Positions 52,748-55,700 of a stretch of DNA of 64,000 nt are shown in pieces. Source of the DNA: Trichoplax sp. H2. Taxonomy: Eukaryota. Below the pieces are notes generated by a model. It did no database searches and was not told the origin of the DNA. It worked only from the letters and a program-made list of their open reading frames with translations. The stretch's first letter is position 1. Every line of letters begins with the position of its first letter. The position numbers and the translations under genes are program-made. Where the stretch lies: positions 682,001-746,000 of the forward strand of contig NOWV01000016.1 in NCBI GenBank assembly GCA_003344405.1, written 5' to 3'.

Positions 52748-55700
52748 TTACCATTTCTTCTTTTGATCATCAACGCTGAGGCCACCTGGACCGTGAGCAA
52801 CAATCAGTAAAAGCCCACCAATAACCGACATATATTGGAAGAAATCGTATCTGAGGTAATCTTGAATGAATGTGTCAGCGCTGTACATCCAGAATGGATT
52901 GAGGTATAAGTTAACACACAACAACCAAACAACTAGAACCAGCGAGGATAATTTAGTCTTAAAGCCAACGCCAACAAGGATAATTAAAGTTGATCCAAAA
53001 ATGTTTTGTATGATAGAAATGAAACTAACATCAAACCGAAAGAGGGTCATAAACATAAAAACTAGTAGCAACCTGCCAGCTAACTGTAAGTAAGTCTGTG
53101 GGGTATTGCTATCCAGTCGCGGTACACCAGCAAAAATACTCTTGGTTTCCCCTTTGCATTCAGCCAAGAGAAGTATGAGACCGCCACCAATAGCGAAATT
53201 TCTAATAATGAATAAATTGTAAGTTAGCAATGATGTAGAGATAAAAAGAGAGTTTGTGATTGGAATACGTTTGTAAAAACGAGATATAAAGTCGGACATG
53301 CAACAAGATCACTTTCCAAATTGACGACAGTATAAATTGTATCATCATAATAGTACTATAAATGACAACAGTAATCATTCCCTTTAAAATAGCGACCATC
53401 TATTGGTACGCAATTTTCTAATCATGAATAAATTGTAAGTTAGCAATGATGTAGAGATAAAAAGGGAGTTTATGATTGGAATACGTTTATAAAAACGGTA
53501 TATAAAGTCGGACATACAACAAGATCACCTTCCTAATTGACGACAGTATAAATTGTATCATCATAATAGTACTATAAACGATAACTGAAATCATTTCCGT
53601 TTATAATGGCAACCATATATTGGTACGCAATTTTCTAATCATGAATAAATTGTAAGTTAGCAATGATGTAGAGATAAAAAGAGAGTTTATGATTGGAATA
53701 CATTTGCAGTATACAAAGTCGGATATGCAACAAGATCACCTTCCAAATTGATGACAGTATAAATTGTATCATCATCATAGTACTATAAATGATAACTGAA
53801 ATCATTTCCGTTTATAATGGCGACCATCTATTGGTACGCAATTTTCTAATCATGAATAAACTGTAAGTTAGCAATGATGTAGAGATAAAAAGAGAGTTTA
53901 TGATTGGAATACGTTTGTAAGAACGGTATATAAAGTCGGACATACAACAAGATCACTTTCCAAATTGACGACAGTATAAATTGTATCATCATAATAGTAC
54001 TATAAATGATAACTGAAATCATTTCCGTTTATAATGGCGACCATATATTGGTACGCAATTTTCTAATCATGAATAAATTGTAAGTTAGCAATGATGTAGA
54101 GATAAAAGAGAGTTTATGATTGGAATACGTTTGTAAGAACGGTATATAAAGTCGGACATACAACAAGATCACCTTCCTAATTGACGACAGTATAAATTGT
54201 ATCATCATGATGGTACTATAAATGATAACTGAAATCATTTCCGTTTATAATGGCGACCATCTATTGGTACGCAATTTTCTAATCATGAATAAATTGTAAG
54301 TTAGCAATGATGTAGAGATAAAAAGAGAGTTTATGATTGGAATACATTTGCAGTATACAAAGTCGGATATGCAACAAGATCACCTTCCAAAATTGACGAC
54401 AGAATAAATTGTATCATCATAATAGTACAGTACTATAAATGACAACAGTAATCATTTCCCTTTATAATGGCAACCATGTATTGGTACGCAATTTACACTA
54501 TTAATTAACATTGATTAGTACATTGGATAAAGCAAATATTCACTCACCTCATTAGAAAGCGAAGCTCCCAGATGACATTGTACAGAATAGTCTAACATTT
54601 GGAGAAAGGGAAAGATAAATGATATTAATTTAGTCTTATCCACATCAACAAATTACATACAGTTCATGGAAATAAATGACGAATGTACTGCTGTAGAGTA
54701 GTATACTGGACGGGCGTCCACTTTATCCTTTATAAATAATTCATGTCGGAATAAATTAGTTTCAGTCATGCAAAGTAGACGTTTACCAATTCTACGCTAT
54801 AATGTTACTATTTCTACACAAGGACTGCAAAGTAAGAATCTGTAGGTTATTGCTTCCTGCCCTCTAGAGGATAATATCTTTCATACTGGATAAACTAGCA
54901 GCTGTGATGAAGTAGAACTATTCCATGTCTACCATCGCCATTTTAAAGTTGGCTGCCATGACTAATTTTCTCCACGGCCGAACCCCTTTCAACTCCGTGT
55001 CATTGGTGTCGACTATACTAGCTCAATAGTATCGTACTGTCGTTCTATACAATATACTATGACTACTACAGTCGTGTTTTAGAGTTTGATGAATTAATTA
55101 TTGTCGCACTGTTGTTGTCCAACACGATAGTTTAGTGGTCCAAACCGAGCACGAGGCAACTCTTTATGACCCAAAAGAGTTTTACATCACCTAAAAACAC
55201 TAGCATCCAGTGCAAACTATTTAATTTAACTAGCTCGTACAATCCGCCAATAGCCATAAGACATGTGGCTAAATCAGCCTATAGAACAATAGTGAAGTAC
55301 TATGTCGCGTAGCACTTTAATCCCAAGGTAAATTTATGTTGCCAAAGTCCCTACTCCAAAACTGAAAGACTGTCCAAATGACATCAACTACTCATGGTAG
55401 AGCACTCCACACGGGGGAAAATTGCTCAAAATTTCATAGTGTACTGGAAATAATGGTTGTTGAAAGTGACGAGGACAATATTGTCCATTTTTCCAGCTTA
55501 ATTACAGTATGTTGTCAATCACGGATCACTACCAAAGGGCATCCTCGAAGACAAAGCGCTAGCAATTTATGATACACAATGAATTGATCATAGTAGGCTA
55601 TGATCATTTAGTTTATTAGTTGTCAGTCCAGTATGTCGTAAGTGAATTTTACGCTAAATGCGATAGGAATGGAAAATAGATGAACGAGGAGAACTACGTT

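What the first reader, a model, noticed from the sequence alone, without database searches (positions are those of the whole stretch)
53197..54547. SURF4 intron carries five duplicated branch-point/3' splice-site decoys upstream of the real acceptor
Seen in sequence: on the transcribed (minus) strand each ~216-bp unit ends ...CTCTCTTTTATCTCTACATCATTGCTAACTTACAATTTATTCATGATTAG|AAAATTGCG. This is a copy of the pyrimidine-rich stretch, the branch-point-like TGCTAAC and the AG of the true acceptor (...TTCATTATTAG|AAATTTCGC at 53202). The spliceosome meets five near-identical acceptors (54279, 54063, 53846, 53635, 53418) before the real one. Splicing exon 2 to any decoy gives R-K-L-R-T-N-(R/I)-W-x-x-(L/F)-stop. 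Units 2, 4 and 5 also contain GTATGT, a donor used elsewhere in this window, which could define poison exons. Inference: to make SURF4 the cell must skip all decoys (exon definition, or the TATTAG vs GATTAG difference), remove the intron stepwise, or use the decoys for NMD-coupled regulation.
Basis: partly seen in the sequence, partly recalled or inferred. Interest (0 to 1): 0.8.

Follow-up and report, generated by a model that had tools for sequence, protein, structure and literature searches.

The report
Silent splice-acceptor copies in SURF4 intron
A placozoan SURF4 intron has grown five-fold by tandem copying of its own 3' end, so five near-perfect spare splice acceptors precede the real one, yet assembled RNA shows only the real one in use, which makes it an ordinary intronic repeat but a tidy natural test of acceptor choice.

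Summary
Intron 2 of a Trichoplax SURF4 gene (minus strand, 54547..53202) contains a 216-bp x 6 tandem array (53199-54494, 91% matches). Each unit ends in the same branch-point-like TGCTAAC, pyrimidine stretch and AG as the true acceptor. The regulatory reading has no support. In 3 of 3 RNA contig sets the only joint from exon 2 goes to the true acceptor (53201/54548). In 0 of 3 does a joint reach a decoy AG or leave a GTATGT. Contigs drop rare forms, so low-level use stays open. The array is tandem and multi-copy in a DNA run, but six copies is not independently confirmed. Best reading: a locally born, probably neutral minisatellite that copied the 3' four-fifths of a roughly 266-nt intron. 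Its copies stay silent because they lack exon 3 behind them (GC 0.28-0.31 against 0.46) and carry G, not T, at -6. That G interrupts the U run and closes a predicted weak 9-bp hairpin over the AG. It mirrors the human F7 IVS7 repeat with silent 5' pseudo-sites. Interest is modest.

The parts
56555..56884 (-). SURF4 exon 1, coding part (ATG at 56884; 110 codons). RNA contigs extend upstream to 56943.
   Evidence: Pfam SURF4 profile positions 2-102. ORF translation reads the same as P0001. Joint 54591->56555 in 3 of 3 RNA runs.
54592..56554 (-). Intron 1 (1963 nt), GTAGAA...TTAG
   Evidence: Joint 'skips 1963', ends CT..AC on the + strand, in 3 of 3 RNA runs and 0 of 1 DNA run. Sequence.
54548..54591 (-). 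SURF4 exon 2, 44 nt ([14 protein letters not shown] + 2 nt of an Arg codon)
   Evidence: Bounded by the two RNA joints. Reads the same as P0001.
53202..54547 (-). Intron 2 (1346 nt), GTGAGT...TATTAG. It holds the array.
   Evidence: Joint 53201->54548 'skips 1346' in 3 of 3 RNA runs at depth 94/160/200, and in 0 of 1 DNA run.
54495..54547 (-). Unrepeated 5' part of intron 2 (53 nt: donor GTGAGT, a TACTAAT motif, ...AATAGTGT)
   Evidence: The array starts at 54494.
53199..54494 (-). Tandem array, 216 bp x 6. Units: U1 54494-54279, U2 54278-54063, U3 54062-53846, U4 53845-53635, U5 53634-53418, U6 53417-53202. It runs 1-3 nt into exon 3.
   Evidence: TRF. Unit alignment and identity matrix, 87-97%. 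Unit-to-unit boundaries bridged by contigs X1 r5 and X12 r10.
54279..54325 (-). Pseudo-acceptor 1 (pyrimidine stretch, TGCTAAC, ...CATGATTAG; G of the AG at 54279). Would give a 269-nt intron.
   Evidence: No RNA joint.
54063..54109 (-). Pseudo-acceptor 2 (G of the AG at 54063)
   Evidence: No RNA joint.
53846..53892 (-). Pseudo-acceptor 3 (G of the AG at 53846; extra A>G at -16)
   Evidence: No RNA joint.
53635..53681 (-). Pseudo-acceptor 4 (G of the AG at 53635)
   Evidence: No RNA joint.
53418..53464 (-). Pseudo-acceptor 5 (G of the AG at 53418)
   Evidence: No RNA joint.
53202..53248 (-). True acceptor (same tract and TGCTAAC, ...CATTATTAG; T at -6)
   Evidence: RNA joints. Predicted unstructured, 0.0 kcal/mol, against -3.6 to -5.6 for the decoys.
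52748..53201 (-). SURF4 exon 3, coding part with the stop codon (150 codons + TAA). The mRNA contig continues beyond 52600.
   Evidence: Pfam SURF4 profile positions 117-267. 100% identity to P0001. X20 record 25.
54156..54161 (-). GTATGT in U2. With the AG at 54279 it would bound a 117-nt exon carrying an in-frame stop.
   Evidence: Not used in any RNA contig.
53940..53945 (-). GTATGT in U3 (would-be 117-nt exon)
   Evidence: Not used.
53512..53517 (-). GTATGT in U5 (would-be 117-nt exon)
   Evidence: Not used.

Best explanation
Intron 2 of a placozoan SURF4 gene carries a locally born minisatellite. A 216-bp segment was duplicated head to tail until six units stood in a row. The segment ran from 54 nt behind the donor, through the pyrimidine stretch, the TGCTAAC branch-point-like motif and the AG, and 1-3 nt into exon 3. 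The intron was therefore about 266 nt before the expansion and is 1346 nt now (inferred). The last unit is the working 3' splice site. The five upstream units are pseudo-acceptors that stay silent in steady-state RNA: the exon 2 donor is joined to the last, exon-adjacent AG (shown at contig level). The array is most likely neutral or slightly costly rather than a regulatory device. How the last site is chosen is inferred. (1) Only the last AG is followed by exon 3, which brings a GC step from 0.30 to 0.46 and coding sequence; the decoys are followed by more intron-like repeat, so exon definition and exonic enhancers favour the true site. (2) All five decoys carry G where the true site has T at -6. 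This interrupts the U run between the branch-point motif and the AG. It also lets a weak 9-bp hairpin pair the AG while the branch-point motif sits in its loop.
For: Array and unit anatomy. The junction of units can be placed at three positions within an A run, so the copied segment includes 1-3 nt of exon 3. There is no other copy of the unit in the window and no Rfam family at E <= 1 on either strand of 52600-57000. Splicing: the joint 53201->54548 is present in 3 of 3 RNA contig sets (two studies, two coded organism labels) at depth 94, 160 and 200, and absent from the DNA run. One 1606-nt contig (X20 record 25) carries exon 1, exon 2 and exon 3 together. No other joint starts at 54548 or ends at a decoy. 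A source-annotated protein matches this model: 100% identity computed over exon 3, the rest read by eye. Contigs that still hold the intron side of the true acceptor have depth 5.5 (X19) and 7.2 (X12), against 77 and 200 for exon 3. This is a rough ceiling of a few per cent for unspliced plus decoy-spliced RNA. Discriminators: within -47..-1 the only difference shared by all 5 decoys is -6 G/T. Decoys fold to -3.6 to -5.6 kcal/mol with the AG paired, and the true site to 0.0. Swapping the -6 base in silico exchanges the accessibility values at 6 of 6 sites. GC of +1..+100 is 0.46 for the true site and 0.28-0.31 for the decoys. Neutrality: the acceptor-like 60-70 nt of the units are not significantly better conserved than the rest (5 of 37 events in the last 60 columns, p about 0.04 for that cut). 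When the best window is searched for, 37% of permutations do as well.
Against: All RNA evidence comes from assembled contigs, which drop rare variants and give no strand, so decoy use at a low level or under particular conditions is not excluded (notes). The RNA label of X12 is a guess by the tool. Decoy 1 sits 269 nt from the donor, almost the ancestral intron length, and differs from the true site at only 3 of the last 70 intronic positions. Under simple intron definition it should be favoured, so its silence needs the inferred discriminators, and none of them was tested. The hairpin is weak (-3.6 kcal/mol at 37 C parameters). The -6 difference is one of several U6-specific changes and could be chance. 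The five decoys are copies of each other, so they count as one observation. The mild excess conservation of the acceptor region (p about 0.03-0.04 uncorrected) points the other way.
Confidence: 0.7

Rival explanations
1. Regulatory decoys. The pseudo-acceptors are used at a controlled rate, alone or with the GTATGT donors as 117-nt poison exons. This gives stop-containing transcripts that are degraded, or a truncated 136-aa product, and so tunes the SURF4 level.
For: Each decoy-spliced reading stops after 11 codons. Three units carry GTATGT 117 nt behind a decoy AG. The acceptor-like part of the units carries fewer changes than the rest (0.083 against 0.196 events per column, uncorrected p about 0.04). 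A single base (-6) switches a predicted hairpin, which could in principle be condition-sensitive.
Against: 0 of 3 RNA contig sets hold any decoy joint or GTATGT joint. No truncated 100%-identical product was among 43 hits of 60-193 aa. The conservation excess is not significant once the window is chosen by scanning (7268 of 20000 permutations). A stop in what would then be the last exon has no downstream exon junction, so classical junction-dependent NMD would not apply unless a GTATGT donor is also used (inference).
Confidence: 0.1
2. Assembly artefact or over-count. The genome has one unit, or fewer than six, and the assembler inflated the array.
For: No run holds more than 0.75 of the stretch's sampled words. 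That share fits short-read contigs that fail to assemble the repeat. In DNA run X1 a contig joins 54361 to 53280, skipping 1080 = 5 x 216 nt, with 13 other letters between. That is what a one-unit allele would look like. Two A-type pieces have depth 1.0-1.6 x flanks where the window predicts 2.
Against: That X1 joint has only 24 letters on its short side, below the tool's own caution line of 30. In X1, 19 contigs lie on the stretch, 9 fit two places, and the array is broken into pieces of 51-130 nt. A single unit would not branch in this way. X1 record 5 (53969-54098) bridges the U2/U3 boundary and X12 record 10 (53741-53974) bridges the U3/U4 boundary. Repeat pieces reach 2.2-3.1 x the flank depth, close to the multiplicities of 2.1-3.9 predicted from the window.
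Confidence: 0.07
3. The unit is something else that happens to lie in the intron: a tandemly repeated small RNA gene, a transposon-derived satellite, or a repeated enhancer. On this reading the acceptor resemblance is secondary.
For: Each unit holds an ATGATGA motif resembling a box C (motif recalled; sequence). Introns often host snoRNAs (general knowledge).
Against: No Rfam match at E <= 1 on either strand, and no CTGA box D in the unit (read). RNA depth over the array (0-10) is no higher than over intron 1 (2-14). There is no second copy in the window. The last unit is the true acceptor itself, so the unit derives from the intron's own 3' end.
Confidence: 0.04
4. Stepwise or nested removal. 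Internal GTATGT donors are spliced to downstream decoy AGs first, which shortens the intron before the final exon 2 to exon 3 ligation.
For: Three GTATGT motifs and five AGs with full branch-point-like and pyrimidine context lie in the right order.
Against: No such joint in 0 of 3 RNA contig sets. GTT|GTATGT matches a metazoan 5' splice-site consensus poorly at -1, -2 and +4 (consensus recalled). Decoy AGs are not followed by GT, so ratchet-type recursion is impossible.
Confidence: 0.04

Closest known systems
Human F7 intron 7 (IVS7) 37-bp VNTR with silent 5' pseudo-sites (Borensztajn et al. 2006, PMC1557585; abstract read)
   Same: In both, a minisatellite has its terminal unit across an exon-intron boundary, so the authentic splice site is accompanied by several identical or near-identical copies in tandem. 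The copies normally stay silent and only the exon-adjacent site is used.
   Different: There the 5' splice site is copied, the unit is 37 bp, and the first (most upstream) site wins by 5'-to-3' scanning. Here the whole 3' module is copied in 216-bp units, and the last (most downstream) site wins, so scanning from the donor cannot be the rule. The F7 pseudo-sites were shown competent by mutagenesis; here competence is untested.
Duplicated 3' splice-site constructs in globin pre-mRNA
   Same: Identical acceptors placed in tandem. As I recall it, choice depends on the exon sequence that follows each copy and on proximity.
   Different: Those are engineered constructs tested in vitro and in vivo. 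This is a natural six-unit array in an early-branching animal, with no experiment behind it.
Decoy 3' splice sites and U2AF2 decoys (HNRNPA1/U2AF2 study PMC5932609, search listing only; caspase-2 In100 element, recalled)
   Same: Intronic sequences with acceptor features that can bind 3' splice-site factors without being used as the main acceptor.
   Different: Known decoys act as regulatory elements with measured factor binding. Nothing here shows binding or regulation, and the copies arose by recent tandem duplication.
Splicing-associated tandem repeats in human genes (Hamanaka et al. 2023, PMC10078293; abstract and introduction read)
   Same: Intronic tandem repeats near splice sites whose length can alter splicing.
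   Different: Those are mostly short motifs acting as binding sites for RNA-binding proteins, for example the (TG)n repeat at CFTR exon 9. Here the unit is a whole acceptor module.
INS IVS1-6 A/T variant (Kralovicova and Vorechovsky 2010, PMC2939332; abstract read)
   Same: A single base at position -6 of a 3' splice site changes how efficiently, and how U2AF-dependently, the site is used.
   Different: A human gene with an A/T rather than a G/T difference, shown by experiment. Here the -6 effect is only inferred from sequence and folding.
Intron birth by segmental duplication (Hellsten et al. 2011, PMC3265369; abstract read)
   Same: Tandem genomic duplication rearranges splice signals in one step.
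   Different: There the duplication creates a new intron. Here it lengthens an existing intron and multiplies its acceptor.

Membership tests
SURF4 / Erv29 family (Pfam PF02077) | Profile match above the curated cut-off over the whole domain | tested here: met
   Exon 1 scores 127 bits (profile positions 2-102) and exon 3 scores 210 bits (positions 117-267), against a cut-off of 27. Exon 2 supplies the 15 residues between them.
Splice-junction-spanning minisatellite with silent pseudo-sites (F7 IVS7 type) | Head-to-tail array of three or more units | tested here: met
   216 bp x 6.0, 91% matches. Unit identity 87-97%.
Splice-junction-spanning minisatellite with silent pseudo-sites (F7 IVS7 type) | The terminal unit spans the exon-intron boundary, so the authentic site is one of the copies | tested here: met
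   The array ends at 53199 and the first exon base is 53201. Unit junctions include 1-3 nt of exon 3.
Splice-junction-spanning minisatellite with silent pseudo-sites (F7 IVS7 type) | Pseudo-sites match the authentic site over the consensus region | tested here: met
   Within -47..-1 all five differ at -6 (G for T), and one also at -16. TGCTAAC and the AG are identical in 6 of 6 units.
Splice-junction-spanning minisatellite with silent pseudo-sites (F7 IVS7 type) | Pseudo-sites are silent in normal mRNA | tested here: inconclusive
   0 of 3 RNA contig sets show a decoy joint and 3 of 3 show the authentic joint. Contigs drop rare forms, and raw reads were not available.
Splice-junction-spanning minisatellite with silent pseudo-sites (F7 IVS7 type) | Copy number varies between individuals (VNTR) | tested here: inconclusive
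   The X1 joint skipping 1080 nt and the lower depth of A-type pieces hint at a different structure. Short contigs cannot size the array.
Poison-exon or decoy-exon regulation coupled to NMD | An inclusion or decoy-spliced isoform is detectable in RNA | tested here: not met
   There is no joint to any decoy AG or from any GTATGT in 3 RNA contig sets, and no truncated product among 43 short SURF4-like proteins. Sensitivity is limited to assembled forms.
Poison-exon or decoy-exon regulation coupled to NMD | The element is conserved beyond the neutral level | tested here: inconclusive
   Within the array the acceptor region has fewer changes, but the excess is not significant after correction. No orthologous intron from another placozoan could be fetched.
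Recursive (ratchet-point) splicing | The AG is immediately followed by GT, so that a 5' splice site is regenerated | tested here: not met
   All five decoy AGs are followed by AAAATT.
Intronic snoRNA or other described RNA family in tandem | Match to a curated covariance model | tested here: not met
   0 Rfam matches at E <= 1 in 52600-57000 on both strands.

The most novel reading that the evidence does not exclude
The five pseudo-acceptors are fully competent. They are held silent only by the -6 G, which closes a marginal hairpin over the AG and breaks the U run. Conditions that melt or stabilise that hairpin (temperature, helicase or U2AF level) would then shift splicing from the true site to the first decoys. 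That yields stop-containing SURF4 transcripts, so the array acts as a copy-number-tunable, condition-sensitive dimmer of an ER cargo receptor in one of the simplest animals.
Probability: 0.05. Interest if true: 0.6.

Novelty: new member of a known kind. Interest (0 to 1): 0.3.

Why it matters
Mainly as a natural experiment. Five copies of a complete acceptor module lie between the donor and the true acceptor. The first recreates the ancestral intron length (269 nt against about 266 nt), yet assembled RNA shows only the last one in use. If raw reads confirm this, 3' splice-site choice in a placozoan with short introns would not be set by the intronic module or by proximity. It would depend on what follows the AG and perhaps on one base at -6. 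A few minigenes could test that. It would extend the human F7 5' pseudo-site model to the 3' side and to an early-branching animal. For the organism itself the array is probably neutral ballast.

Tried and rejected
1. No whole genome is held for this window. I therefore made no genome-wide search for further copies of the unit and built no genome-trained splice model. With only two RNA-verified introns in hand I did not build a weight matrix.

2. No Rfam family matched at E <= 1, so the small-RNA reading was dropped.

3. I searched with exon 1 for short SURF4 products of 60-193 aa. Of 43 hits, the best was 90% identical (P0121, 112 aa), and none was a 100%-identical truncated form. This is weak evidence only, because such forms may never have been assembled or called.

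4. The scan of metagenome contigs with exon 3 matched 518 pattern stretches, and none was confirmed. No orthologous intron could be compared.

5. I tested whether the decoy acceptors are masked by pairing with the next unit. Shuffling the downstream 150 nt left the accessibility unchanged (observed 0.49-0.56 against shuffled means 0.49-0.57; 28-56 of 100 shuffles at or below the observed value). That idea was rejected, and the difference traces to the -6 base instead.

6. I tested whether the acceptor part of the units is under extra constraint. It is not significant after scanning correction.

7. Earlier findings of this scan: none for this genome.

8. Literature: searches turned up no paper on this Trichoplax intron and no natural 3' acceptor array among the 15, 20, 12 and 12 papers listed. 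Those listings are not an exhaustive search.

9. Parts of the array without cover in the RNA runs are not used as evidence of anything.
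Full report
**What is there.** The window is AT-rich eukaryotic DNA (GC 0.30-0.40). Two minus-strand reading frames between 52748 and 56932 match the Pfam SURF4 family: profile positions 2-102 (E 1e-36) and 117-267 (E 6e-62). 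The exon 3 translation is 100% identical to a 275-aa protein, P0001, which its sources name surfeit locus protein 4 of Trichoplax. Read against the translations, P0001's sequence matches a three-exon model:
- exon 1: 56884..56555, 110 codons
- exon 2: 54591..54548, 44 nt
- exon 3: 53201..52748

**The observation.** Tandem Repeats Finder reports one array at 53199-54494 with period 216, 6.0 copies, 91% matches and score 2125. It is by far the highest-scoring of the three arrays found in the window at score >= 80. blastn of a unit against the window finds only the six tandem copies, at 88-100% identity.
- On the transcribed strand each unit ends ...CTCTACATCATTGCTAACTTACAATTTATTCATGATTAG.
- The G of the AG lies at 54279, 54063, 53846, 53635 and 53418. 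The true acceptor...CATTATTAG, ends at 53202.
- Within the last 47 intronic bases, the only difference shared by all five copies is G for T at -6. One copy also has A>G at -16.
- Reading from exon 2 into any copy gives RKLRTN(R/I)W(S/L)(P/L)(L/F) and a stop.
- GTATGT occurs at 54161, 53945 and 53517. Each lies 117 nt behind a decoy AG.

**How the array arose (inferred from sequence).** The array begins 53 nt behind the donor (...AATAGTGT|AAATTGCG) and ends 1-3 nt inside exon 3 (...TATTAG|AAATTTCGC).
- Internal junctions read TTAG|AAAATTGCG, which can be cut at three positions within an A run. The copied segment is therefore the 3' four-fifths of the intron plus 1-3 exon bases.
- Subtracting five units leaves an intron of about 266 nt.
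- The edge units U1 and U6 are the most diverged (87-93% to the others). The inner units U2, U3 and U5 are 96-97% alike, and U4 is a mosaic. This is the usual picture of an array that grew and exchanged sequence internally.
- The unit order (types A-B-B-A-B-B) and the best partners of each unit weakly suggest a last duplication of three units.

**Is the array real?** Twenty public runs from 8 studies hold the stretch, none with more than 0.75 of its sampled words. That share fits short-read contigs that fail to assemble the repeat (inference).
- In DNA run X1, 19 contigs lie on 52600-57000 and 9 fit two places. Inside the array they are pieces of 51-130 nt.
- One piece (53969-54098) bridges the U2/U3 boundary. 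In X12 a 234-nt contig (53741-53974) bridges the U3/U4 boundary.
- Repeat pieces in X1 have 1.0-3.1 times the flank depth, where the window predicts 31-mer multiplicities of 2.0-3.9.

A tandem, multi-variant, multi-copy array therefore exists outside the assembly, although X1 may be the assembly's own source. The number six is not confirmed. One X1 contig joins 54361 to 53280, skipping 1080 = 5 x 216 nt, with 13 unmatched letters and only 24 letters on the short side. That could be a strain difference in the first unit, a graph artefact or a short allele. I could not tell which.

**What the RNA shows.** I laid two RNA runs (X19 and X20, one study, organism label A), one run guessed to be RNA (X12, another study, label B) and the DNA run X1. 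The joint table has three rows in all.
- 53201->54548 (skips 1346, GT..AG on the minus strand) appears in 3 of 3 RNA sets at depth 94, 160 and 200, and not in the DNA run.
- 54591->56555 (skips 1963) appears in the same 3 of 3 and not in the DNA run.
- The third row is the X1 repeat joint described above.

A single 1606-nt contig (X20 record 25) carries exon 1, exon 2 and exon 3. No contig joins exon 2 to a decoy AG, none leaves a GTATGT, and none shows a 117-nt insert.

Low-depth contigs cover both introns (depth 1-14) and cross the donor and the true acceptor unspliced: X12 record 12 at depth 7.0 and X19 record 18 at depth 5.5. Exon contigs have depth 77-200 or more. As a rough ceiling, a few per cent of steady-state RNA still holds the last unit, whether unspliced or decoy-spliced. 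These are contigs, so rare forms are dropped and depth is a poor measure. Absence of decoy use is not proven.

A protein search with exon 1, restricted to 60-193 aa, found 43 SURF4-like proteins. None was a 100%-identical truncated form.

**Why the last site?** The first decoy would give a 269-nt intron, essentially the ancestral geometry, and it differs from the true site at only 3 of the last 70 intronic positions. The discriminating information must therefore be the -6 base, what follows the AG, or both.
- Downstream context: the true AG is followed by exon 3 with GC 0.46 over +1..+100. Each decoy is followed by repeat with GC 0.28-0.31, the same as the intron at 0.30.
- The -6 base: folding shows that the decoys form a 9-bp interrupted hairpin, UCUA-AUCAU paired with AUGAU-UAGA. 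It pairs the AG and puts TGCTAAC in the loop, at -3.6 to -5.6 kcal/mol. The true site is predicted open at 0.0.
- Accessibility: the mean unpaired probability of -40..-1 is 0.49-0.56 for the decoys and 0.78 for the true site.
- Controls: shuffling the downstream 150 nt does not change this. Swapping the -6 base in silico exchanges the values at 6 of 6 sites.

The -6 G thus both breaks the U run and closes the helix. The helix is weak, the five decoys are copies of one another, and U6 has several other private changes. This is a lead, not a result. A single -6 base is known to alter 3' splice-site use in human INS intron 1 (PMC2939332, abstract).

**Is there selection on the decoys?** The last 60 columns of the unit alignment carry 5 of 37 mutational events (0.083 per column against 0.196; binomial p about 0.04). 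When the quietest 50- or 70-column window is searched for, 37% of permutations do as well. I read this as no clear constraint. No Rfam family matches and no related locus could be fetched, so cross-species conservation is untested.

**Comparison with what is known.** The closest precedent I found is the human F7 gene. Its intron 7 holds a 37-bp VNTR whose first unit spans the exon-intron boundary, so the authentic donor is followed by identical 5' pseudo-sites. Those sites are competent but silent (PMC1557585, abstract). The present case is its 3' mirror image with a much longer unit, and the winning site is the last, not the first, so a 5'-to-3' scan cannot be the rule here.

Other points of comparison:
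- Engineered duplicated 3' sites whose use depends on the adjoining exon sequence (Reed and Maniatis 1986) are recalled, not seen here.
- Intronic repeats that influence splicing are catalogued in humans (PMC10078293, abstract and introduction).
- Decoy acceptors that bind U2AF2 are described (PMC5932609, listing only).
- Ratchet-type recursive splicing is excluded, because the decoy AGs are followed by AAAATT, not GT.

**Verdict.** The gene and the splice sites are right. The puzzle of five ignored acceptors is real. The proposed regulatory uses have no support in the data I could reach. The most likely reading is a young, probably neutral intronic minisatellite with silent pseudo-acceptors: a new member of a known kind and of modest interest. 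It is worth a look in raw reads and a few minigenes.

Noticed in passing
window 53280 / 54361 (run X1): A DNA-run contig links the first unit to sequence typical of the last unit. It skips exactly five units (1080 nt), with 13 unmatched letters between and 24 letters on the short side. It may be a short allele, a strain difference in unit 1, or a graph artefact.
   Followed up: partly
window 7228-7621: A second tandem duplication, 201 bp x 2.0 at 94% matches, lies in a GC-richer stretch (0.40). No stop-to-stop frame of 70 aa or more runs through it.
   Followed up: partly
window 57150-57430: Just upstream of SURF4 exon 1, several frames on both strands translate as runs rich in Y, T, V, Q and C, for example YTVQYTVYCTVQYS. 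This points to a degenerate short-period repeat. It is not reported by TRF at score >= 80.
   Followed up: no
protein P0121: A 112-aa protein from ENA contigs of up to 1600 nt is 90% identical to SURF4 exon 1 over its full length. It looks like the exon 1 frame of a related placozoan read slightly past the exon 1 end. Its DNA could not be fetched, so the orthologous intron 2 could not be compared.
   Followed up: no
window 54548-54591: SURF4 exon 2 is only 44 nt long and lies between introns of 1963 and 1346 nt. The donor of intron 1 is the weak-looking CAG|GTAGAA.
   Followed up: no
window 52029-52747 (approximate): The full-length mRNA contig X20 record 25 continues 571 nt beyond 52600. If it is colinear with the genome, the SURF4 3' UTR is about 0.7 kb and the terminal exon about 1.2 kb. 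Colinearity below 52600 was not checked.
   Followed up: no
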